From sequence record MN445185.1: a stretch of 64,000 nucleotides of DNA; one strand, 5' to 3'. The notes below the pieces were generated by a model, which was not told where the DNA came from, did not search any database, and worked only from the letters and a program-made list of their open reading frames with translations. Source of the DNA: Escherichia phage vB_EcoM_EC001. Both the position numbers and the translations under genes were made by a program. Shown one piece after another: positions 3,963 to 51,554 of the stretch; the first letter of the stretch is position 1; every line of letters begins with the position of its first letter.

Positions 3963-6131
3963 ATGTCATACACTCCCGATTTAGTGGCGACCGTGATTCG
4001 GTCGCTCAACCGTAAAAACGCGGTCGCCAAAGCAGTAGACCCCGCTAACGTACGCCTGGTGTCCGTGGCGCATCGTGACGAAAAAACCCTAGACGTCACA
4101 CTGACAGGGGGTCCGGGGTATTCAAGTTACGGTCAAATTACGGCCCAAGTCACGAAGCAAAATATTGCTGATTATTTCGCCAAGGTTAAGTTGGATGCCA
4201 TTCCCACTTGTGCGTCCATCCACGAACTGTTGCCGCATTTAGACACTCTACTAGGGATTACCTTTTTAACCGACGACTTTGAAGACCTGCCTATCACTTG
4301 GACAAACAATGCTGCGCGCGTCACGTTCCAGGCGAAACAGACAAGTCTTATCTGGTACGGCAGCCAAACGCTAGATGTGATAAACGGTGACGTGGATATC
4401 AACACTGTCTACACTGTTACCAATATCATTCTCACGCTAAAGGCTGCGAATAAACAGCAGTGGATTAACTTCTACTCTAATGCAACCAAACGGATCGTGG
4501 ATCTTGATAAAGTCGATGTCAGCGCCCCGATGTCCCCGGAGGATATAGGCCAAACCTCTGCGTATAACAGCGTCGTAGCATTGACCGCTAGACCGGGGAG
4601 CGGGATGTTTGGAACGAAGTATGTGTTCTTCTCACGTAACAAACTCGAGACATATGCAGGCAAAACCACATACGTCCCGGATGATTTCACCGGTAGCCTG
4701 CACGATGCTCTGGCCATCGAGACACTCGGCATTCGGAGCGTTTTTGATGTAAACGAAATTGCTCCTGTAGAGAACCTGGCAGGCGAGTGGCCAAGACAAG
4801 TGCAATTGGCACCCGTAGAGGGTTCGTACAAAGTCATGGGCAACGCCACGTTGAATGTGGCACGCTATCAAGATAACGAGCAAACCCTTAACCTGAACTA
4901 CACAACTACGTCGCAACTTTCGGACAGCTACTGGGCCACAACGTTGATCAACCATGCGGCGTGCGGGCGTTTGTTTGTTAACGTGACCGTAGATGCAGGG
5001 GCTTTCGTTTATCGCGACAGCAACCTGAAACCGACGTTCGTTATCGACGAATTGCCGCAAATTGGCGAGGTGGTTTGGAACTTCGTTAACCGGGGAACCA
5101 TTCTTGGTCGTGGTGGTTCTGGTATGGTCTACTCTATGCCTGCGAACACATCAGCGGACGGAGCTGACGCAATCCACATTAGCGATACCTTCCGTGGCAA
5201 AGTCACCATCGAAAACTACGGCACCATCGCCGGTGGTGGGGGTGGGGGCGACTACTATGCGTTTAGCACCACCAAGATCGGTGGAGCTGGTGGTGCGCCT
5301 CTCGGGCCAGGCGCGGCGGTGCCCAGCGGCACCAATAACCGTAACGGCTTAGCTGGGTCCCGTGACAAAGGCGGTGCTACCCAGTTAGTCGTCGAGCAAT
5401 TTACCGGCTACCAGAGTCGCTACTATGGCGGTCCGGGTGGGGATTGGGGCCAGCCGGGACGATATACAGCGTTCGAGCAATGGAACACCCCGGCTACCGG
5501 CTCGCCAGTCTATGTCTACGGTCGTGAAGACGGGATGTCATGGACTCGCCCTGGGATGGCAGGCGAAGCTGTCGGTGGGAATAAAAGTATCGTCAACTGG
5601 GTATCCGTCGGAACGGTGAAACCGAATGTTACCGACGAGTACCAAGAGTTCCTCGACTACCTCGCAGTTTTAGATGCCAATCGACTGGCCAGTGCGGATG
5701 GGATAGATAAAGTCACCGACCCAACCAAGCCTGTAGTTGTGGAGTTCTTAGGTACGATTATTTCAGGTACGCTGTTCAAAAAGCAAAACATACCCGGCGG
5801 TTTGGTGGGAACACCATACGGCGATGCTATAGCCAATTTACCGAGCACCACATTGTTTGGTATCATGGCACACAGTGTATCTGAGTTTGATATTGTGCAC
5901 GACACTTGGCGTTACAACCGTGCGGTAATGTTCACGCTAAAACCCGCGCCTACCGGGACGATTAACCTCGCTGTGGAACGCAACCGGGTGAAATCGGCTA
6001 CCAGTAGTGCACCGGTGGAGAAGTTCTATGTCGATCGCTTCGTGTATTACGATGCGTATCTCGGTAAGATGATGGAATGTAATCCGTATACCAAATCCGC
6101 CCCTAAACCGTGGGTGCGGCCAAAGAAATAG
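3963..6131 (+). CDS. Putative tail fibre/adhesin-like protein with Gly-rich segment
   Basis: 722 aa; GGGGGGDYY...GGAGGAPLGPGAA glycine-rich region; C-terminal PYTKSAPKPW motif paralogous to the previous gene; followed by terminator 6187..6218. Confidence 0.5.
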   Translation: MSYTPDLVATVIRSLNRKNAVAKAVDPANVRLVSVAHRDEKTLDVTLTGGPGYSSYGQITAQVTKQNIADYFAKVKLDAIPTCASIHELLPHLDTLLGITFLTDDFEDLPITWTNNAARVTFQAKQTSLIWYGSQTLDVINGDVDINTVYTVTNIILTLKAANKQQWINFYSNATKRIVDLDKVDVSAPMSPEDIGQTSAYNSVVALTARPGSGMFGTKYVFFSRNKLETYAGKTTYVPDDFTGSLHDALAIETLGIRSVFDVNEIAPVENLAGEWPRQVQLAPVEGSYKVMGNATLNVARYQDNEQTLNLNYTTTSQLSDSYWATTLINHAACGRLFVNVTVDAGAFVYRDSNLKPTFVIDELPQIGEVVWNFVNRGTILGRGGSGMVYSMPANTSADGADAIHISDTFRGKVTIENYGTIAGGGGGGDYYAFSTTKIGGAGGAPLGPGAAVPSGTNNRNGLAGSRDKGGATQLVVEQFTGYQSRYYGGPGGDWGQPGRYTAFEQWNTPATGSPVYVYGREDGMSWTRPGMAGEAVGGNKSIVNWVSVGTVKPNVTDEYQEFLDYLAVLDANRLASADGIDKVTDPTKPVVVEFLGTIISGTLFKKQNIPGGLVGTPYGDAIANLPSTTLFGIMAHSVSEFDIVHDTWRYNRAVMFTLKPAPTGTINLAVERNRVKSATSSAPVEKFYVDRFVYYDAYLGKMMECNPYTKSAPKPWVRPKK

Positions 6132-6245: not shown

Positions 6246-6836
6246 GTGGTCGATCGTTGGAGTAAAGAGGGCATTATTCGTGCCAAAGTAAACATCGAAG
6301 CCGGTTACGTTAATAACCCGAAAGATTTGGGCAAAGCAACGAACCGCGGTGTCACTGAACTCACAGCGCGTGAATATGGCTATAAAGGGGATATGCGTGA
6401 CCTGAGCCTAGAAACCGCGTTAGACATTTACAACAAGCTCTGGTGGCAGCGGATGCGCTTAGACCAGATTATGAAAATGAATGTCCTGCTAGCTGACCGG
6501 ATGTTTGATTTCGGCATCAACGCAGGTCGCGGTAACTGTATCAAGTCCCTGCAGCGCATTCTGAACGTATTAAACCGTCAGGGTAAACTGTACGACGACA
6601 TCGAAGCAGATGGCGGTATTGGGCCACGTACGTTAACAGCGTTAGAAGGCTTTATCAAAGCCCGTGGGGAAGAGGGCCTGAATCGACTGATATTCGCTTT
6701 AACCTGTCATCAGGTTGCGTACTACACGGAAATCAGTGAAGGGCGTGAGGATAACGAAGAGTTTACTTACGGCTGGTATGGCCGCGTCTATCAGGAAATG
6801 CCAGACTACGTGGCTAAGTTGGGGATGTGTAAATGA
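6246..6836 (+). CDS. Endolysin, GH108-like muramidase with C-terminal peptidoglycan-binding domain
   Basis: EAGYVNNPKDLGKATNRGVT matches the GH108 N-terminal EGGYVNDP.DPGG.T..G signature; DGGIGPRTL and GWYGRVY match the PG_binding_3 pattern. GTG 6246 follows RBS AGGAGG (6235-6240); track start 6183 and ATG 6219 lie inside the upstream terminator hairpin. Confidence 0.75.
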   Translation: MVDRWSKEGIIRAKVNIEAGYVNNPKDLGKATNRGVTELTAREYGYKGDMRDLSLETALDIYNKLWWQRMRLDQIMKMNVLLADRMFDFGINAGRGNCIKSLQRILNVLNRQGKLYDDIEADGGIGPRTLTALEGFIKARGEEGLNRLIFALTCHQVAYYTEISEGREDNEEFTYGWYGRVYQEMPDYVAKLGMCK

Positions 6837-7124
6837 AACAGAATTGGTTTGCTGCCTTAATGAAAGCTATCTGGCGCGCCCTTGTTTTTGCCGCAAGGAG
6901 AAAACGTAATGACCCACCGTCCAACTCCGCCTAAGTTCCCCGAAGTACAAACCGTTCCGGAAACGTATTACGATTCTGGGTTCTTCAAACTATTACGCGC
7001 GATTTTGTGTCGGAGAGTAAAGCCATGCAATACGACAACGACGACTGGCCGAAAGGCTTAATGCCCATTTTACTGGGATTAATGGTCCTCACGATGTTCG
7101 TGCGTTATATGACGTGAGGCCAGT

Positions 7125-7775: not shown

Positions 7776-8291
7776 ATGTTTCATCCGAATCCTGCCAACT
7801 TCGCGTTAAAAGAGTTGATGCCGCAGGAGTACATCGCGAAATACGGTGAAGGTGCTATTCGTTTCCTTAATCCGTTACTGCTAATCTCGCTCCAACAGAT
7901 TCGTAATCGTTTTGGGCGGATGGTGATTTTAACCAGTTCCCAGCAACAGCGTAGTCTGCGTACCCTGCAGTTCTTTATTAATCAAGAGAAACCAAAGGGT
8001 GGAGATTGGCAAACTCGTGCAAACAAACTGTACGCCGAATCAGGCAGTATGCATAAATTCGGTAATGCGTTTGATGCAACAATGCTCGATACTCCGTTGC
8101 AGAAAGTGCACGATTATATTGCCGCGAACCCTGACGAGTTTCCATTTATTCACTTTATCGAGTGCGATATTACCTGGCTACATGTTGACGTACGCAACCA
8201 ACCTGATATCACCTTCTGGTCACCAACACGTGGTACCGTTAAAGTGGTAAAACAACAACCCATCGATTGGAGCAAGCTAGTTAAAATCTAA
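7776..8291 (+). CDS. Peptidase M15-family peptidoglycan hydrolase (T5-endolysin-like L-alanyl-D-glutamate peptidase)
   Basis: RBS AAGGAG; zinc-ligand motifs H-x6-D (SMHKFGNAFD) and downstream LHVDV closely resemble the T5 endolysin/VanY pattern (HITGDAID ... HVEL). Confidence 0.65.
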   Translation: MFHPNPANFALKELMPQEYIAKYGEGAIRFLNPLLLISLQQIRNRFGRMVILTSSQQQRSLRTLQFFINQEKPKGGDWQTRANKLYAESGSMHKFGNAFDATMLDTPLQKVHDYIAANPDEFPFIHFIECDITWLHVDVRNQPDITFWSPTRGTVKVVKQQPIDWSKLVKI

Positions 8292-8370
8292 GCCACTTTA
8301 ATCAAAAGTAATATCATTTATCATTTGATACGTTTAATGCGCTTAGAGAGCGTTACAGAGCGTTTTAGAG

Positions 8371-8430
8371 GGTAAATAAAGCCCTTACCCACTCCCCTTA
8401 CGGGAGTGGGTAAGCACTATTTATTTTCTT
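8371..8430. terminator. Bidirectional intrinsic terminator between convergent genes
   Basis: 13-bp stem CTTACCCACTCCC / GGGAGTGGGTAAG (8384-8396, 8402-8414), A-rich upstream and T-rich downstream. Confidence 0.7.
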
Positions 8431-8908
8431 CTAACGGAACAATCGTAACCGGGGTAGGAACTTCGTCAATAAAGCCGCCGCTGCAGCGAAAGAACGTCAT
8501 CCCTTTACCTTCCCCGGTATGCGGGTTCACATCCGAAAAAGAGTAAGTGGGGCCATCGTTTACGGTTTTATTAATACGGTAATAACGCTCACCTGTGGTG
8601 GTGTTAACATTCCCGTCGATTTTGCCAATTGTATCTTTAAACATCATCGGTGACTCAAGTTTGCCACCGTCCCACGTTGCTACCCAGTTTGCACCCACAT
8701 CCATTACTGTTACTGACCGCGGCATCATTTGTAGGTTGTCCAGTACCGGACGGTAGTCTATAAACTTCTCCTGTGTCCCTGTGCATGTATAAATCACCAA
8801 GTCGCGATTCTTTACCGGTGTGCTGCTAAATTGTCCGATGTTGCTTGGTGACTGGACGCAACCGGTCAACAGGCTTATAAACGCGAATACGATAAATAGA
8901 CGTTTCAT
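8417..8908 (-). CDS. Lipoprotein (signal peptide with lipobox LTGC)
   Basis: N-terminus MKRLFIVFAFISLLTGC; isolated minus-strand gene between a bidirectional terminator and a divergent intergenic region. Confidence 0.65.
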   Translation of the reverse strand: MKRLFIVFAFISLLTGCVQSPSNIGQFSSTPVKNRDLVIYTCTGTQEKFIDYRPVLDNLQMMPRSVTVMDVGANWVATWDGGKLESPMMFKDTIGKIDGNVNTTTGERYYRINKTVNDGPTYSFSDVNPHTGEGKGMTFFRCSGGFIDEVPTPVTIVPLEENK

Positions 8909-9032
8909 AAGGTATCCTTTCAGTGGTAAAAACTTTCTCGTTTAACAGCCAACTTTACTGTCATATTAAGCCCACTATGTATTTTTTAGAATGATTTAGT
9001 ATGCACCACAAACCTACTATAAGGAAACAACC

Positions 9033-9581
9033 ATGGCAGTCATCTCTGCAAAAGACCAACTCGTCGCGCTGTTTAATGCCGCAAACAGCGGACTGCCTAG
9101 TCCGTTAACTGCTGCTGACGTTACATTCGGCGCTGTTGCTGACTATTCACCAGCTGATTCTGGAGACACTCGCAACTCCAAACTCACCATCACCGCCACC
9201 GCGGAATCCGCTAACTTTACTGGCGAGAAAGAGCTGCATTATACCCGCCTCAATTTATCGGACTTCATCGGTGCGAAAGCAGTGACCGCTGACCAGGCAG
9301 AATGGGATACCGATGAAGAAGTGCTTGCTTTTGTCAACGCAGAACTATTTGGCGACGGTGAAACGGAAGATCCGTTTGCGTTGTCTGAACTCACCATTTC
9401 ACGCGAAGACGGCAGCAGTGGTGAGAAAGTCATCACTGTTATGGTGAAAGAAGGCCACATTAAATTCCAACCTGTCAGCCTTGGAGTTTATACTGTAACG
9501 CAGCCAATCGTTAAAACTGACCTGAGCACCACCAACGGTGAACTGGGCGGATTCGGCGGCGAAGGTCACGCTGGCATGTAA
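9033..9581 (+). CDS. Hypothetical protein
   Basis: RBS AAGGAA; C-terminal TTNGELGGF motif resembles the C-terminus of the 1..634 product. Confidence 0.5.
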   Translation: MAVISAKDQLVALFNAANSGLPSPLTAADVTFGAVADYSPADSGDTRNSKLTITATAESANFTGEKELHYTRLNLSDFIGAKAVTADQAEWDTDEEVLAFVNAELFGDGETEDPFALSELTISREDGSSGEKVITVMVKEGHIKFQPVSLGVYTVTQPIVKTDLSTTNGELGGFGGEGHAGM

Positions 9582-9610
9582 CAGAGCAATTAGTAGTTTC
9601 TAAGAAATAA

Positions 9611-9657
9611 ATAAAAGGTACCTACCTCCCTTCGGGGAGGTAGGGCCTTTATTTTCT
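9611..9657. terminator. Bidirectional intrinsic terminator (end of minus-strand operon and of 9033..9581)
   Basis: CCTACCTCCC-TTCG-GGGAGGTAGG hairpin flanked by A-run and T-run. Confidence 0.7.
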
Positions 9658-9661
9658 TTGC

Positions 9662-10333
9662 TTACATGCCGAGTGATTCGGACAATGTTTTTAATCCAGT
9701 GTAATCGCGCTTTTCAGCTAACTCACGGATTTGGCGTTTGTTATCTGCCATTGCTGAGTGCAACACCTGGTCGCGTGCAACAATAGCGGCCAACAACGCT
9801 TTACATTGGTCTACTGTAAACGGACTGTGCTTCGTATTCAGCGTATCGAGCCAGTATTCTGGTGCGGTATCTGCCTGAATGTATTGACCGAGGATGGTAC
9901 GCGACGATTCATCGGCTTGAAAGTGACTACCTTCAAACTCGATATAACCATGACGCTCATCTTCGTAGCGATGGTCAAGTTCCAACAGCATCTTCTGCAC
10001 GTCTTCGTAAATGTAACGTGCGGTAGATTTCAGATTCCCGCGAATTTCGTCGAGGTCAATCTCCAGCACATTAGCAATAAACTCTTTCGTGCGTTTCAAT
10101 GTGAATTTAGCTTCAATCTCCGACATCTCATACAGCTTCATGCGTGCCAGGGCTTCTTTATCAGACATCCCTTCGATGAGATGATAATGGAGCAGAGCGC
10201 AAAAGCCTGTACGGCCCTGATCCTGCGCACCGATTCGTTCCATGAAATTACCGTGACGATCAATCGGCAAATCACGCTGGAAATAACGGGCGCGGATCTC
10301 TTCGTTCGTTAAGCTTTTGTCAGTAACAGACAT
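9662..10333 (-). CDS. Hypothetical protein (last gene of the minus-strand operon)
   Basis: 223 aa ORF ending just before bidirectional terminator 9611..9657; no recognisable motif. Confidence 0.5.
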   Translation of the reverse strand: MSVTDKSLTNEEIRARYFQRDLPIDRHGNFMERIGAQDQGRTGFCALLHYHLIEGMSDKEALARMKLYEMSEIEAKFTLKRTKEFIANVLEIDLDEIRGNLKSTARYIYEDVQKMLLELDHRYEDERHGYIEFEGSHFQADESSRTILGQYIQADTAPEYWLDTLNTKHSPFTVDQCKALLAAIVARDQVLHSAMADNKRQIRELAEKRDYTGLKTLSESLGM

Positions 10334-10875
10334 TCGTCCTCCTCAATCAGGCCAAGTTCTAACAACAAACCGAAGTCCAGCATCTGGAAGTCCTGATCGA
10401 GGTTACCGGCCCACAACAGAGAAATGTTGTGTTGCTCTTCTTCTTCCAACTGCGGGAGCAGGTGTTCTTCGAAGATTTGACGTTCTGTGTAATAAGCGTC
10501 AACCGGGTTATTGGAGCGTAAGTTACGAATACGCATCCGCGGGAAAGACAAGCCCAAAGCCACTAAACTTTCAGGACTGGCTTCATCGATGGAATGACGT
10601 AGCAGTTCGATTTTGTGGCGTGGGTATGCGAGCAGTCGCTTCTCAAAGCCAGGGTTGCGCTTTTCGATTTCCGCGACAGACTCGTGTCCTTTCTCAACGC
10701 AGTAGACCGGGATCATCACATTCAGCCCGTATTTAATCAACAGGCTTTGGATTTCATCAGTGAAGTCTTCCCCTGCCACAATTGCGTGCACATTGTACAG
10801 CTTGCTTTTGCGCAGGAAGCGATCGACCAAGTGCAGTTTACGCTTCGTAAAATTGTGAATCAGTATTGACTTCAT
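10309..10875 (-). CDS. Hypothetical protein
   Basis: Start moved to the internal ATG (MKSILIHNF...) which has GGAG 7 nt upstream; overlaps the upstream rSAM gene by about 38 nt. Confidence 0.5.
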   Translation of the reverse strand: MKSILIHNFTKRKLHLVDRFLRKSKLYNVHAIVAGEDFTDEIQSLLIKYGLNVMIPVYCVEKGHESVAEIEKRNPGFEKRLLAYPRHKIELLRHSIDEASPESLVALGLSFPRMRIRNLRSNNPVDAYYTERQIFEEHLLPQLEEEEQHNISLLWAGNLDQDFQMLDFGLLLELGLIEEDECLLLTKA

Positions 10876-12166
10876 TCTGGGCTCCGTTTTGTAATTTTTC
10901 TGCTTCGGCACGTTGGCGTACACAACGTGAACAATAGCACATGGATTTATCATGCAAATCTGATGCGCGGGTCGTACCAGTTTTCTGATACCAATATTCC
11001 GCCGCCATCAGTTTCGCAGTAGTCCAACCACACTGACGACGCTCGGCGTGATACGCTTTACGGTCTTCCAGTGTACCTTCACCGTTTTCGTACGATGCTG
11101 CTGCGCAGCTACCGCAACTGTGTTTCATCGGACACCCTAAACAGGTTTCTGGGTAGTTGGTGTACTGCGTTTGAATCTCTTCTAACAGCTTACCACCGTC
11201 CAGGCTCACAAACTCACGACCGACCAGTTCTGCTACAGCAGAGCGGGAAGTTACCGTGGACATGAAACGGTTACAACCGTAAATCTTGCGATCAAAGCCG
11301 AGACAGGTCATGTGCGTCAACGTACCGCAGTACGGTTTCAGGCGTTCTGGGTCGAGACGAACAGAGTCGTCATGTAAGAGTTTGTCACGCCAATCCGGGT
11401 CCCAAGTTGCCATAAAGTTCAGGCCATCCGGGATGATGTGCGTAATCGTGTTACGCGGGTTGGTGTGCAGACCCTTCTCAATCCAGTAGTCCATCACGTC
11501 CATCATCTGGTTCGCGATATCCAACGCCATATGGCGCGGCAGGATATCTTCGTACGTTACATTACCAGAAATGGTACCACCGCCGGACATGTCAATTAAC
11601 GATTTCATGCTGGCGGCATAGTGCGGCAATGTATCGATCGTGAACGTCGCCTTTACGCCCAGCTCAGCGATGCCGACACTCTTCAGATAATTGTAACCGC
11701 GTACCGCAGCTTCGTACGACCCTTCACGCGTCGTGGTAAAGATACGATATTTGTCATGGACTTCAGGTAAACCATCGATGGAGACCCCAATAGACAGTTT
11801 GTCTTTCCAGCGCTCGATAATTTCTTTGTTCAGCGGACGGTCCAGAAGTGTACCGTTCGTGGAGATACTGAACATATACGGGCGATTGTGTTCTGCGCAT
11901 AACTTCTCTGCGGTTTCAAAGGCCGCCAAAAGAAGTTTAGGCTGCATGAACGGCTCACCACCAATGATATCGATGATGACTTCAACGTTCGGGATATCTT
12001 TATCGCGCTCGAAACAAGCGTGGATAAAATCAATCACGTCTGCTACTTTGTTGTTACGAGGATATTTACGCTCGTAGCAGTATTCGCAGTCCAGGTTACA
12101 TGACAGGTTAGTCACAACCTGATACGTGCGTGGTGTGTACTGGATTTGCTGTTCGCTGTTACTCAT
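10838..12166 (-). CDS. Radical SAM enzyme with C-terminal Cys-rich (SPASM/twitch-like) auxiliary cluster domain
   Basis: CNLDCEYC (CxxxCxxC) near the N-terminus and GGEP SAM-binding motif; C-terminal clusters CGTLTHMTC, CLGCPMKHSCGSC (Cx2Cx5Cx2C) and CYCSRC. Start overlaps the upstream gene stop (ATGAGTAA). Confidence 0.8.
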   Translation of the reverse strand: MSNSEQQIQYTPRTYQVVTNLSCNLDCEYCYERKYPRNNKVADVIDFIHACFERDKDIPNVEVIIDIIGGEPFMQPKLLLAAFETAEKLCAEHNRPYMFSISTNGTLLDRPLNKEIIERWKDKLSIGVSIDGLPEVHDKYRIFTTTREGSYEAAVRGYNYLKSVGIAELGVKATFTIDTLPHYAASMKSLIDMSGGGTISGNVTYEDILPRHMALDIANQMMDVMDYWIEKGLHTNPRNTITHIIPDGLNFMATWDPDWRDKLLHDDSVRLDPERLKPYCGTLTHMTCLGFDRKIYGCNRFMSTVTSRSAVAELVGREFVSLDGGKLLEEIQTQYTNYPETCLGCPMKHSCGSCAAASYENGEGTLEDRKAYHAERRQCGWTTAKLMAAEYWYQKTGTTRASDLHDKSMCYCSRCVRQRAEAEKLQNGAQNEVNTDSQFYEA

Positions 12167-13073
12167 TGTTCGCCGCCCGTTTACGCTTAGCAGAAATTAC
12201 ACGGTTGATGTAGTTATACGCATCAACGCCGATAGAACGCGCCAGGCGATTACAGCCGACTTCCAATATCTCTGGGGCGTTCTGAATTTGCTCCTGCGTA
12301 CCGTCGGCGTTAAGCCACAGCACTTCACTGCACGTGTTGCACTCGGTATCGAACATTTTACTGATCGCAAGCCCACACTCAGAATCGTTCTGCATGTTAA
12401 GGCGTTCGATATTGTCGAGTATTTTCCAATACCCGTACATGAAGTTCATGACGTGGTCTGGCGATAACGGTTTCGGCATCATCGCATCAAACAGCAACGA
12501 CATACCACCTGGACGGTAATGATAGATTGCTCGGTGCAGCTCGATGAAATCTTCGTACCAGCGTTTATCGCCTAACTGGTCACGCGTCATCACACCCCAG
12601 GTGTAATAGTTGTCCAGCTCGTACAGCACTTCCAGCGCTTCGTGATTACCACCGTTTACAAAGTTCATAAACGGACGTTCCGACTTCTTGTAGCCGTCAA
12701 TGGACACAAAGATAAGGTCGAACTGTTTCAGCAACGGCAGATGTGATTTACGCATCTTTAAACCGTTGGTGTACATGTGATGACGGAGGTTCGGATGAGA
12801 CTCCTTCAACTCGTTCACGAAGTCTTCAATCTTACGCTGCGCTAACAGCGGCTCACCGCCCGTCCAATGAATCTCACCGATATCCGGATTCTTCTCTAAA
12901 ATCGAGAGAATCTCTTCACGTTGAAACTCACGAGAAGTATCTTCTCTATCCATGTAATAAGCCCCTCCACAGAAGCTACAGTCTAAGTTACACTTAGAAG
13001 TTGCGACAACCGACAGAATTGACGGTTTGTCGTACAGTTCAGACGAGATCCTGGATTCTACTTGATCTGTCAT
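12159..13073 (-). CDS. Radical SAM enzyme (second, shorter)
   Basis: CNLDCSFCGG (CxxxCxxC), GGEP motif, and C-terminal cysteines (ECGLAISKMFDTECNTC...GC) suggesting an auxiliary cluster. Confidence 0.75.
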   Translation of the reverse strand: MTDQVESRISSELYDKPSILSVVATSKCNLDCSFCGGAYYMDREDTSREFQREEILSILEKNPDIGEIHWTGGEPLLAQRKIEDFVNELKESHPNLRHHMYTNGLKMRKSHLPLLKQFDLIFVSIDGYKKSERPFMNFVNGGNHEALEVLYELDNYYTWGVMTRDQLGDKRWYEDFIELHRAIYHYRPGGMSLLFDAMMPKPLSPDHVMNFMYGYWKILDNIERLNMQNDSECGLAISKMFDTECNTCSEVLWLNADGTQEQIQNAPEILEVGCNRLARSIGVDAYNYINRVISAKRKRAANNE

Positions 13074-30877: not shown

Positions 30878-31087
30878 TTACGCGTTTACGTAATAGATGG
30901 CGTTGCCGAACATTTTGTTGTTGCCGCCACAAGCGGTAACTTTAAATGCTACGCCGCCTTCAGCTTCGGCTTTCTTAGCCAGCGCTTCGGTAACTTCGGT
31001 AACGGTGCTCAGTCCAGAAACCTGAACGGTGCCTGCTTCTACCAGACCAGAAACGTCGCTGCCTGCGGTGATTTCACGAATGCTCAT
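30878..31087 (-). CDS. Small DUF1471-like (YdgH/BhsA/McbA-type) domain protein without signal peptide
   Basis: GTVQVSGLSTVTEVTEALAKKAEAEGGVAFKVTACGGNNKMFGNAIYYV follows the pattern of enterobacterial BhsA-family C-terminal domains; RBS GGAG upstream. Confidence 0.55.
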   Translation of the reverse strand: MSIREITAGSDVSGLVEAGTVQVSGLSTVTEVTEALAKKAEAEGGVAFKVTACGGNNKMFGNAIYYVNA

Positions 31088-50549: not shown

Positions 50550-51065
50550 GTGAGCATGATAGCATCAGTTTTCAAACTGCTTCCATTCTTACAGATGCTG
50601 TGGGAAGCATTTAAACCGGGCGAGGGGGAGAAAGTAACACGAGCCGGGAAGATAGTGACACTAGTGATAGTGGCACTGGTCGCGTTCTCTGCATTTGTCT
50701 CATATGCCTATATTGTTCAATACCACACACTGGTTAGCGTCCAATCGCGTACTCAGTATCTGGAGATATCCTATAAGGAGCTAAAAGAGAAGTCCGATCA
50801 TGGCGAAGTGGAGAACAATAAGCTGTACGATCGTCTCTTCACATGCCTGGGTTCTCGATCGCCATATGATGGTACCAAATCTCCAACAGGGACAGGCACT
50901 GGGGCCGCGGTTCCGCCTGAAGAACTCAAGCCGGTAACACCACAGGCACCGTTAAATCCGTCTAGCCCGCCTGCCAAGAAACACCAGGCGGCTTCTCGCC
51001 CAGTGGGGTCGCAGGCGGCAAACGATTTCCGACAGGAGATTATCAAGACGCTTAATAATCCATGA
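50550..51065 (+). CDS. Membrane-anchored protein with Pro-rich periplasmic tail (i-spanin-like candidate)
   Basis: Single N-terminal TM (IVTLVIVALVAFSAFVSYAYIV), then a charged helical segment and a Pro-rich C-terminus. Confidence 0.4.
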   Translation: MSMIASVFKLLPFLQMLWEAFKPGEGEKVTRAGKIVTLVIVALVAFSAFVSYAYIVQYHTLVSVQSRTQYLEISYKELKEKSDHGEVENNKLYDRLFTCLGSRSPYDGTKSPTGTGTGAAVPPEELKPVTPQAPLNPSSPPAKKHQAASRPVGSQAANDFRQEIIKTLNNP

Positions 51066-51074
51066 GGAGCATAC

Positions 51075-51554
51075 ATGAAGTTATTTTTGGTGGCGATACT
51101 GGTGCTATTGTTGACAGGATGCCCTGGGGTCATCCGTCACGTAGACCCAGATTACTCCTCAACCGGAGATTGGCCTTTTCGTCCTTTAGAACACCCACCA
51201 GTATATAACGGTGGGAACAGTCCTGAGGCGAAAAAGCTGGCAGGGAAAATGTTTGTTGCGGATGTGAACGCTTATGCTTATTACGTTTATCTGTACGCTA
51301 AGTCAGTAAACAACTATGCAGAAGCTAAAGGGTGGCACACCCCGATGACCGCACCGCTTTGTGAAGAGTTTATTCGCCCCACTCTTCATGGTATACCCTC
51401 CGGGATATATCTCGACCCTGGTTCTCGTAGCCCTCAAGACATTAGTCGTGATTTGTCACGACAGATTAAGTCTCTCATTCGCAGCTATCGCGAAGACAGA
51501 GAGTCTTTTAATCGTGCCTACGAACGGCACAAAAGTAGTTGCCTTGTGCAATGA
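51075..51554 (+). CDS. Lipoprotein (lipobox LTGC)
   Basis: MKLFLVAILVLLLTGC signal/lipobox; immediately downstream of the membrane-anchored gene; followed by terminator 51558..51597. Confidence 0.6.
   Translation: MKLFLVAILVLLLTGCPGVIRHVDPDYSSTGDWPFRPLEHPPVYNGGNSPEAKKLAGKMFVADVNAYAYYVYLYAKSVNNYAEAKGWHTPMTAPLCEEFIRPTLHGIPSGIYLDPGSRSPQDISRDLSRQIKSLIRSYREDRESFNRAYERHKSSCLVQ

What the first reader, a model, noticed from the sequence alone, without database searches (positions are those of the whole stretch)
8417..8908. Stand-alone lipoprotein gene in moron-like configuration
A 163-aa lipoprotein (lipobox LTGC) is encoded on the opposite strand between a bidirectional terminator and a divergent intergenic region, that is, as an autonomous transcription unit. 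Phage lipoproteins in this arrangement are often superinfection-exclusion or receptor-masking factors (established for T5 Llp and Cor-like proteins), but this protein shows no recognisable similarity to them by eye.
Basis: partly seen in the sequence, partly recalled or inferred. Interest (0 to 1): 0.5.

Follow-up and report, generated by a model that had tools for sequence, protein, structure and literature searches.

The report
Jumbo-phage outer-membrane lipoprotein gene
A giant Salmonella phage carries a self-contained gene for an uncharacterised, non-virion lipoprotein that should be sent to the host's outer membrane; it sits among the phage's host-recognition genes and may shield infected cells and their debris from further phage attack, but this is untested.

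Summary
Window 8417-8908 (-) encodes a 163-aa lipoprotein precursor with lipobox LTGC. It lies between a 13-bp bidirectional terminator (8384-8414) and a 124-bp divergent intergenic region.

The window is a SPN3US-like jumbo phage (Seoulvirus, Chimalliviridae), and the gene is SPN3US_0159, annotated "hypothetical".

- Distribution: the family occurs only in about 65 enterobacterial jumbo-phage genomes and similar metagenome contigs.
- Conserved features: all 34 homologues keep the lipobox, lack Asp at +2 (outer-membrane sorting) and keep two further cysteines.
- Virion status: it is absent from published SPN3US virion proteomes.
- Fold: AlphaFold (pLDDT 82) gives a small all-beta, barrel-like domain with no significant match to T5 Llp, Rtp45, PliC or anything else solved.
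- Not the spanin: a separate spanin-like pair lies at 50550-51554.
- Context: in every lineage the gene lies among virion adhesin, fibre or chaperone genes. In Goslar it directly follows the tail fibre and its chaperone. The divergent layout matches T5 llp/oad.
- Promoter: a conserved TATG motif, the late-promoter type of phiKZ, lies upstream.

Best reading (about 0.4): a late-made outer-membrane lipoprotein that acts like Llp, blocking an envelope receptor or entry site. It works like Llp but is not a member of that family. The function is untested. Interest is moderate.

The parts
8417..8908 (-). CDS for the 163-aa lipoprotein precursor, orthologue of SPN3US_0159 (AEP83992 / YP_009153453). 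Signal peptide is aa 1-16 (8861-8908). The mature chain is aa 17-163 (8420-8860). The stop codon is 8417-8419.
   Evidence: PHROG 9559 at E=4.5e-81; 94% identical to SPN3US
8858..8869 (-). Lipobox L-T-G-C (aa 14-17). Cys17 is the predicted acylated N-terminus of the mature protein. Residue +2 is Val, not Asp, so the Lol pathway is predicted to deliver it to the outer membrane.
   Evidence: A lipobox was present in all 34 homologues examined, and none has Asp at +2 (the regex picked an upstream site in two sequences, which were corrected by eye). The sorting rule is established knowledge for Enterobacterales.
8783..8785 (-). Codon of invariant Cys42 (Cys26 of the mature chain), one of two invariant non-lipobox cysteines.
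   Evidence: Invariant in alignments A2, A3 and A6. A disulfide with Cys142 is inferred and was not checked in model coordinates.
8483..8485 (-). Codon of invariant Cys142 (Cys126 of the mature chain), lying in the last beta strand of the model.
8384..8414 (.). Bidirectional intrinsic terminator shared by the convergent genes 7776-8291 (+) and 8417-8908 (-).
   Evidence: equivalent hairpins with different stem sequences in 13 of 14 related loci
8962..8965 (-). Conserved TATG motif 57 nt upstream of the start codon. It is the putative promoter and start site for the phage's non-virion RNA polymerase (T-3 A T G+1 in phiKZ). The predicted transcript start is G at 8962.
   Evidence: TATGAC is conserved 38-71 nt upstream in all 14 SPN3US/Erwinia-type loci, and TATGGAA in Goslar-type loci, while the flanks diverge. 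The phiKZ late consensus is from PMC7598289. The assignment is inferred.
8944..8962 (-). Predicted 5'-terminal stem-loop of the leader, starting at the putative +1.
   Evidence: A hairpin is present at this place in every locus, with differing stem sequences. It is not a general feature of TATG sites in the window.
8915..8919 (-). Shine-Dalgarno-like AAGGA, 7-11 nt upstream of the ATG.
   Evidence: read directly from the sequence
8909..9032 (.). Divergent, AT-rich (34% G+C) intergenic region. It also carries a conserved TATG (9000-9003, +) 30 nt upstream of the divergent gene.
9033..9581 (+). Context: the divergent partner gene, orthologue of SPN3US gp160. It has the N-terminal part of the DUF7941 domain and belongs to 'paralog family B'. 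It is an abundant head-associated protein (>300 copies per capsid) and is itself a one-gene unit ending at the terminator 9621-9644.
   Evidence: The divergent pairing with the lipoprotein gene holds in 14 of 14 loci.
3963..6131 (+). Context: the gp155 orthologue, with an N-terminal DUF7941 domain and a Gp38 tail-fibre-adhesin domain. It shows that the neighbourhood is a host-recognition gene module.
   Evidence: PF05268 GP38 at E=9e-19, residues 362-553

Best explanation
The gene makes a non-structural phage protein that uses the host's lipoprotein pathway.

1. [quoted passage not shown] This step is inferred from sequence rules and supported by perfect conservation.
2. There, a flexible linker of about 7 residues tethers a compact all-beta, barrel-like domain of about 120 residues, probably stapled by a Cys42-Cys142 disulfide, followed by a variable Pro/Ala/Thr-rich tail. 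This comes from the model and from inference.
3. The gene is transcribed on its own, from a promoter in the divergent intergenic region that carries the TATG motif of the phage's non-virion RNA polymerase. That implies expression in the middle or late phase, ending at a bidirectional terminator. This step is inferred.
4. I propose that the barrel binds a conserved outer-membrane or periplasmic component needed for adsorption or genome entry of this phage group. That would make the infected cell and its lysis debris refractory, giving superinfection exclusion and protection of progeny, as T5 Llp does on FhuA and Rtp45 does on LptDE. This functional step is a hypothesis resting on location, gene context and analogy. 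It has not been shown.
For: Lipoprotein features:
- A lipobox and the absence of Asp at +2 hold in all 34 homologues, and two further cysteines are invariant.

Autonomous unit:
- The terminator is at 8384-8414 and is conserved in relatives. The conserved TATG plus leader hairpin is seen. TATG also lies upstream of several operon-leading late genes in SPN3US and of none of three replication or transcription genes checked.

Not the spanin:
- A genome-wide lipobox scan of SPN3US finds only two credible lipoprotein genes. The other one follows a gene for a protein with a transmembrane segment and a coiled-coil-like stretch, and is the better spanin candidate.

Context:
- The gene is divergent from a DUF7941 virion gene in 14 of 14 loci, even where the other flank is rearranged.
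- In Goslar and a related contig it directly follows the tail fibre gene and its chaperone (Caudo_TAP or DUF4376).
- In another lineage it sits between DUF7941 proteins that carry BspA-type leucine-rich-repeat or DUF285 domains.
- In this window gp155, 2.3 kb away, carries a Gp38 adhesin domain.
- T5 llp and oad have the same divergent layout.

Evolution:
- dN/dS is 0.20-0.49, against 0.00-0.19 for six flanking genes.

Structure:
- The AF2 model is confident: pLDDT 82, pTM 0.74.
- Known exclusion lipoproteins are also periplasm-facing outer-membrane lipoproteins, and Rtp45 has an intramolecular disulfide.
Against: - No functional data exist for any family member.
- There is no sequence or fold relation to Llp, Cor or Rtp45. 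Mature Llp and Rtp45 are about 6-7 kDa (62-residue chain; about 6 kDa); this protein is about 16 kDa.
- The constant neighbour, gp160, is reported as a head protein found in tailless particles, not a proven receptor-binding protein.
- SPN3US is reported to use flagella, so any blocked target would have to be a secondary receptor or an entry component that has not been identified.
- A late-type promoter would give no protection early in infection, unlike T5 llp.
- The strong conservation of the core (R108, Y110, R111, G132, G134) across phages of Salmonella, Escherichia, Erwinia and Proteus fits a conserved housekeeping target. It fits a variable receptor less well.
- An endolysin gene also lies within 2-3 kb in most SPN3US-type loci.
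Confidence: 0.4

Rival explanations
1. Lysis accessory. The lipoprotein acts at the outer membrane or peptidoglycan late in infection, either as a regulator or helper of envelope disruption or as an unusual o-spanin.
For: It is an outer-membrane lipoprotein with a late-type TATG motif. In SPN3US-type loci it lies within 0.1-3 kb of the GH108 endolysin and an M15-like peptidase gene.
Against: It has no adjacent or embedded partner with a transmembrane segment, and it is on the opposite strand to the lysin genes. The periplasmic part is a confidently folded barrel, not the short, proline-rich, unstructured o-spanin type, and there is no C-terminal transmembrane segment. A better spanin-like pair exists at 50550-51554. 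The link to lysin genes is lost in Goslar-type phages, while the link to fibre and adhesin genes persists.
Confidence: 0.15
2. Periplasmic inhibitor of a peptidoglycan hydrolase. The model is the MliC/PliC lysozyme inhibitors or T4 Spackle: it would neutralise the tail lysin of superinfecting phages or restrain the phage's own wall hydrolases. This would be a special case of exclusion or of resistance to lysis from without.
Confidence: 0.12
3. Some other envelope-directed host take-over function unrelated to phage entry. Examples are interference with an outer-membrane machine, with envelope stress signalling or with vesicle formation, or a periplasmic binding or carrier role (lipocalin-like).
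For: The fold is a generic small barrel of the lipocalin / YceI / LolA type, which often binds lipids or small ligands. The core is highly conserved across phages of different host genera, which suits a conserved host target.
Against: This does not explain the constant placement among adhesin, fibre and chaperone genes in four separate lineages. No specific family match supports any particular activity.
Confidence: 0.25
4. Virion or assembly component, for example a factor attached to fibres or to the capsid.
For: The gene sits inside the structural gene region, next to an abundant head protein gene.
Against: It is not detected in purified particles in the published data sets held here. A lipidated, exported protein cannot meet virions that assemble in the cytoplasm before lysis.
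Confidence: 0.03

Closest known systems
T5 Llp (lytic conversion lipoprotein; PDB 8a60_B, 7qjf_A)
   Same: It is encoded by a virulent phage. It is a signal-peptidase-II lipoprotein destined for the periplasmic face of the outer membrane. It is a one-gene unit transcribed divergently from a virion-protein gene across a short two-promoter spacer: 79 bp between the coding sequences in T5, 124 bp here. It is not a virion part.
Rtp45 (exclusion lipoprotein of phage Rtp, binds LptDE) and the Cor proteins of T1/phi80-type phages
   Same: These are periplasm-facing outer-membrane lipoproteins. Rtp45 has an intramolecular disulfide and acts from the periplasmic side on an outer-membrane protein receptor. 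The genes lie by tail genes; for Cor this is from memory.
   Different: They are about 6 kDa proteins of small siphophages. There is no sequence match in Pfam or PHROGs. The protein here comes from a 240-kb nucleus-forming myophage.
MliC/PliC-type lysozyme inhibitors (for example Brucella PhiA 7dpy, Salmonella PliC 3oe3)
Two-component spanin outer-membrane subunit (lambda Rz1 type)
   Same: It is a phage-encoded outer-membrane lipoprotein, probably made late.
   Different: There is no partner gene, the protein is a folded globular domain, and it is on the opposite strand to the lysis genes. A separate candidate pair lies at 50550-51554.

Membership tests
Bacterial-type (signal peptidase II) lipoprotein | Basic n-region, hydrophobic h-region and a lipobox [LVI][ASTVI][GAS]C within the first ~35 residues | tested here: met
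   MKRLFIVFAFISLLTGC; a lipobox is kept in all 34 homologues (two regex mis-calls corrected)
Bacterial-type (signal peptidase II) lipoprotein | Outer-membrane sorting: no Asp at +2 after the lipid-modified Cys (rule for Enterobacterales) | tested here: met
   +2 is V, A, S or K in all homologues, never D
Bacterial-type (signal peptidase II) lipoprotein | Actual lipidation and globomycin-sensitive processing | not testable with these tools
   Needs labelling or a globomycin experiment
Llp / Cor / Rtp45 superinfection-exclusion lipoproteins | Sequence homology to a known member | tested here: not met
   hhalign against T5 Llp gives probability 0.1%. The only PHROG hit is family 9559, 'unknown'. 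Pfam, NCBIfam and PADLOC give nothing.
Llp / Cor / Rtp45 superinfection-exclusion lipoproteins | Shared fold and small size (about 6-7 kDa mature) | tested here: not met
Llp / Cor / Rtp45 superinfection-exclusion lipoproteins | Gene placed beside the receptor-binding or tail-fibre genes, with its own promoter | tested here: inconclusive
   The divergent layout is the same as T5 llp/oad, and the gene is adjacent to fibre, chaperone or adhesin genes in Goslar-type and other lineages. In SPN3US, however, the direct partner gp160 is reported as a head protein.
Llp / Cor / Rtp45 superinfection-exclusion lipoproteins | Expression early in infection (T5 Llp) | tested here: inconclusive
   A conserved TATG late-type motif lies upstream. 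No transcript data could be read; PMC6384053 is not held.
Llp / Cor / Rtp45 superinfection-exclusion lipoproteins | Binds the phage's outer-membrane receptor and blocks adsorption | not testable with these tools
   Needs adsorption, plating and pull-down experiments
o-spanin / u-spanin | Adjacent, overlapping or embedded i-spanin gene (o-spanin), or a C-terminal transmembrane segment (u-spanin) | tested here: not met
   The neighbours are on the other strand and have other identities. The C-terminus ...VPTPVTIVPLEENK is not hydrophobic. A separate pair of a transmembrane protein plus a lipoprotein lies at 50550-51554.
o-spanin / u-spanin | Short, proline-rich, largely unstructured periplasmic domain | tested here: not met
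   The all-beta domain is confident, with pLDDT about 84-96 over residues 11-130 of the mature chain.
MliC/PliC lysozyme inhibitors | Match to the family profile or its signature motifs | tested here: not met
   No Pfam family, MliC included, matched any of the 25 members at E<=5 apart from four unrelated chance-level hits. The profile search of PDB sequences gives only chance hits.
MliC/PliC lysozyme inhibitors | Eight-stranded antiparallel beta-barrel fold | tested here: inconclusive
Moron (autonomous accessory unit in a phage genome) | Own promoter and terminator flanking a single gene | tested here: met
   Terminator; conserved TATG in the divergent spacer (promoter activity is inferred).
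Moron (autonomous accessory unit in a phage genome) | Inserted between genes that are adjacent in relatives; atypical composition | tested here: not met
   The gene is fixed at the same locus in 14 of 14 SPN3US/Erwinia-type loci. G+C is 46.3% against 48.0%. The family is, however, limited to 65 records from phages of Salmonella, Erwinia, Escherichia and Proteus, so it is an accessory gene.
Virion structural protein | Detected in purified particles | tested here: not met

The most novel reading that the evidence does not exclude
The gene founds a new structural class of 'lytic conversion' lipoproteins specific to nucleus-forming jumbo phages of Enterobacterales. The class would be a 16-kDa, disulfide-stapled beta-barrel made late in infection. 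It would dock on a conserved envelope machine that these phages need after the first contact with the flagellum or cell surface (a secondary receptor or the genome-entry site). It would thereby protect progeny from being wasted on the dying cell and its debris, and would point directly to that still unknown entry component.
Probability: 0.3. Interest if true: 0.6.

Novelty: new variant of a known kind. Interest (0 to 1): 0.4.

Why it matters
Nothing found here (papers held, family libraries, PDB) describes how nucleus-forming jumbo phages such as SPN3US and Goslar cross the envelope or deal with superinfection. A single exported lipoprotein kept beside their adhesin and fibre genes is a cheap experimental handle. 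Its host partner, found by pull-down, could identify the secondary receptor or entry site of these phages. If it excludes other phages, that would matter for the design of phage cocktails that include Seoulvirus phages. If it proves to be a wall-hydrolase inhibitor or a lysis factor, it would fill a gap in the unannotated lysis system of this group. The finding remains a prediction about an uncharacterised family, not a demonstrated new mechanism.

Tried and rejected
1. AlphaFold with the 6-sequence alignment and the signal peptide gave an unusable model (pLDDT 36.7). The mature chain with 25 sequences worked.
3. Pfam, NCBIfam, PADLOC and the PDB sequence profile gave no family.
4. The one record annotated 'DUF2846' was not reproduced by Pfam scans of 25 members.
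5. P0018, a 5404-aa hit in the representative search, is a repetitive FN3-like protein and a false positive.
6. The sigma-70 promoter scan found fewer sites than chance (2 against 7.0 expected). These phages use their own polymerases, so the scan was not used.
7. I tested whether 'TATG plus 5' hairpin' is a general promoter signature. It is not enriched in intergenic DNA of the window (11 of 75). The k-mer search for an early-promoter motif found nothing.
8. Rfam found nothing relevant.
9. The infected-cell proteome paper (Weintraub 2019, PMC6384053) is not held, so expression timing could not be checked.
10. Literature searches for gp159, jumbo-phage exclusion lipoproteins or Goslar lipoproteins found no study of this family.
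11. The search for related loci with the full 17-sequence alignment failed for lack of conserved stretches. Two sub-alignments worked.
12. The o-spanin, u-spanin and virion-component readings were rejected, as set out in the membership tests.

Full report
**What the window is.** DNA 7800-9600 is 95-97% identical to Salmonella phage SPN3US and about 30 relatives (genus Seoulvirus, 240-kb jumbo myophages). One paper places Seoulvirus in the Chimalliviridae. The ORF in the finding is the orthologue of SPN3US_0159 (AEP83992 / YP_009153453), annotated 'hypothetical protein' in all records.

**The observation.** It is confirmed.
- The ORF 8417-8908 (-) encodes 163 aa beginning MKRLFIVFAFISLLTGC. It has an AAGGA ribosome-binding site 7-11 nt upstream.
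- A 13-bp bidirectional terminator lies at 8384-8414, between this gene and the convergent M15-like gene 7776-8291.
- On the 5' side, a 124-bp spacer of 34% G+C separates it from the divergent gene 9033-9581. That gene ends at a second bidirectional terminator, 9621-9644. Both genes are therefore one-gene units.
- The ORF is a real gene. It matches PHROG 9559 at E=4.5e-81, has homologues in 65 phage records and is under purifying selection.

**The family.**
- A word-indexed search and an exhaustive HMMER search of 1.84 billion representative proteins found only about 20 clusters. All those whose context is known come from jumbo-phage genomes or phage-like contigs. The hosts are Salmonella, Erwinia, Escherichia and Proteus.
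- One 5404-aa hit is a repeat-protein false positive.
- All 34 sequences keep a lipobox, and none has Asp at +2. By the sorting rule for Enterobacterales this predicts the outer membrane.
- Two further cysteines (C42 and C142 of the precursor) are invariant, as are G72, R108, Y110, R111, S125, G132 and G134.
- No Pfam, NCBIfam or PADLOC family matches.

**Structure.**
- With 25 mature sequences, AlphaFold gives a confident model (pLDDT 82.1, pTM 0.74). Residues 1-7 form a disordered tether, residues 11-128 carry ten beta strands and no helix, and the last 17 residues form a disordered tail.
- Foldseek finds nothing significant in the PDB.
- In the viral model library the only strong matches are the family itself. 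A few uncharacterised phage proteins, some of them annotated as lipoproteins, give weak matches.
- T5 Llp is in the PDB but is not among the matches, and profile comparison gives 0.1% probability. The protein is therefore not a member of the Llp family or of any other characterised family.

**What it is not.**
- *Not a virion component.* The spectral-count table for purified SPN3US particles lists gp155 and gp160 but has no gp159 row. [quoted passage not shown]
- *Not the spanin.* A lipobox scan of the whole SPN3US genome leaves only two credible lipoprotein genes. The second one (window 51075-51554) directly follows a gene for a 171-aa protein with an N-terminal transmembrane segment, a coiled-coil-like stretch and a proline-rich end. 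That is the classic separated i-/o-spanin layout. The protein studied here has no partner gene, is a folded globular domain and has no C-terminal transmembrane segment.
- *Not a recent foreign insert.* Its G+C is ordinary, and its position is fixed across the clade.

**Gene context.**
- In 14 of 14 jumbo-phage contigs of the SPN3US/Erwinia type, the gene is divergent from a gp160-like DUF7941 gene. This holds even where the other flank is rearranged.
- DUF7941 is the N-terminal domain of SPN3US 'paralog family B'. Elsewhere it is fused to host-binding modules:
  - an N4 gp65-like receptor-binding barrel in Goslar gp086;
  - BspA-type leucine-rich repeats and DUF285 domains;
  - a Gp38 tail-fibre-adhesin domain in gp155 of this window, at 3963-6131.
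- In Goslar-type phages the lipoprotein gene lies on the same strand, directly after the P1 gpS-like tail fibre gene and its Caudo_TAP chaperone.
- In another lineage it follows a tail fibre gene and a DUF4376 protein.
- In a further lineage it sits between two large DUF7941 adhesin-like genes.
- The one constant across four lineages is therefore placement inside the adhesin, fibre and chaperone module.
- The T5 record shows the same local geometry: llp and the receptor-binding gene oad are divergent, their coding sequences are 79 bp apart, and two promoters are annotated there.
- A caveat: SPN3US gp160 and gp155 were found in tailless particles and are regarded as head proteins. The module may therefore encode capsid-borne rather than tail-borne adhesins.

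**Expression signals.**
- A TATGAC motif lies 38-71 nt upstream of the start codon in all 14 SPN3US/Erwinia-type loci, and TATGGAA in Goslar-type loci. The surrounding sequence is not conserved.
- In phiKZ, T-3 A T G+1 is the only conserved element of late promoters, and the non-virion RNA polymerase strictly requires it (PMC7598289).
- The divergent gp160 gene has its own conserved TATG at 9000-9003.
- In SPN3US, TATG lies upstream of several operon-leading structural genes and upstream of none of three replication or transcription genes checked. This is a small sample.
- Each orthologous leader starts with a hairpin whose stem sequence differs between phages. This is not a general property of TATG sites in the window.
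- Strong terminators follow the stop codon in the SPN3US/Erwinia clade but not in Goslar, where the gene lies in line with the fibre genes.
- I infer middle or late expression by the phage polymerase. No transcript or infected-cell proteome data could be read.

**Evolution.** Against six Seoulvirus genomes, dN/dS is 0.20-0.49 for the lipoprotein gene and 0.59-1.06 for gp160. It is 0.00-0.19 for six flanking genes. The lipoprotein changes are mostly conservative, and three of them lie in the signal peptide. The constraint is therefore relaxed somewhat, but positive selection is not demonstrated.

**Interpretation.**
- Shown or strongly supported: this is a conserved, non-virion, exported outer-membrane-type lipoprotein of a new family. 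It has its own transcription unit and lies inside the host-recognition gene module of enterobacterial jumbo phages.
- Inferred: the disulfide-stapled barrel faces the periplasm, and the gene is expressed late.
- Hypothesis (about 0.4): it binds a conserved envelope component needed for adsorption or entry and so excludes further phage and spares progeny. Functionally this would resemble T5 Llp on FhuA and Rtp45 on LptDE, with a different fold, size and timing. Because SPN3US is reported to use flagella, the target would have to be a secondary receptor or an entry component.
- Rivals: some other envelope-directed function (0.25), a lysis accessory (0.15), a wall-hydrolase inhibitor of the MliC/PliC or Spackle kind (0.12), and a virion part (0.03).

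**Verdict.** The finding is real and correctly described. Interest is moderate. The family is uncharacterised and easy to test, and it could reveal how these jumbo phages interact with the envelope. A phage-encoded outer-membrane lipoprotein is not in itself surprising.

Noticed in passing
window 50550-51065 (+) and 51075-51554 (+): This is a candidate separated two-component spanin. The first gene encodes a 171-aa protein with an N-terminal transmembrane segment, a coiled-coil-like stretch and a proline-rich end. It is followed 10 nt later by a gene for a 159-aa lipoprotein (MKLFLVAILVLLLTGC, proline-rich after the Cys). Both are 'unknown function' in PHROGs (8719, 8165) and 'hypothetical' in SPN3US.
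   Followed up: partly
window 3963-6131 (+): The gp155 orthologue combines an N-terminal DUF7941 domain with a Gp38 tail-fibre-adhesin domain (PF05268, E=9e-19). Published mass spectrometry nevertheless finds gp155 in tailless SPN3US particles. This suggests adhesin-like proteins on the capsid.
   Followed up: partly
window 8944-8965 (-); L009-L025 upstream of the orthologues: The conserved TATG is followed at once by a leader hairpin whose stem sequence differs between phages. A similar TATGACC plus short hairpin lies upstream of the SPN3US tail sheath gene. The feature is not generally enriched at TATG sites in the window.
   Followed up: partly
window 9033-9581 (+): The gp160 orthologue is the fastest-evolving gene of the neighbourhood: dN/dS is 0.59-1.06 against six Seoulvirus genomes, and it is 89% identical to SPN3US where the flanks are 98-100%. 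It is a one-gene unit between the divergent spacer and the bidirectional terminator 9621-9644.
   Followed up: partly
window 6833-6934 (+) and 7025-7117 (+): Two very small ORFs lie just after the GH108 endolysin gene. One is 33 aa, overlaps the endolysin stop and matches PHROG 25143. The other is 30 aa, has a hydrophobic segment and is annotated in only some relatives. They may be small lysis or membrane proteins.
   Followed up: no
window 30878-31087 (-): A 69-aa ORF corresponds to the SPN3US gene annotated as a DUF1471 domain protein (YdgH/BhsA-like small periplasmic proteins of enterobacteria). It is a second probably exported, host-like protein.
   Followed up: no
L031 3618-3998; L032 3618-4166; SPFM records: The family is annotated inconsistently. 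SEGD1 starts the gene at an internal Met (126 aa, signal peptide lost), and JN03 extends it to 182 aa. Several SPFM assemblies carry many small indels that break the ORF into pieces.
   Followed up: no
window 10838-13073 (-): Two adjacent radical-SAM genes, with two small genes (9662-10953) downstream on the same strand, are syntenic with the lipoprotein locus in most relatives. Their role is unknown.
   Followed up: no
window 7776-8291 (+): The gp158 orthologue has only a sub-threshold Peptidase_M15_3 match but hits an 'endolysin' PHROG. In the SPN3US papers it appears at trace level in some particle preparations and is judged not to be a true virion protein.
   Followed up: no
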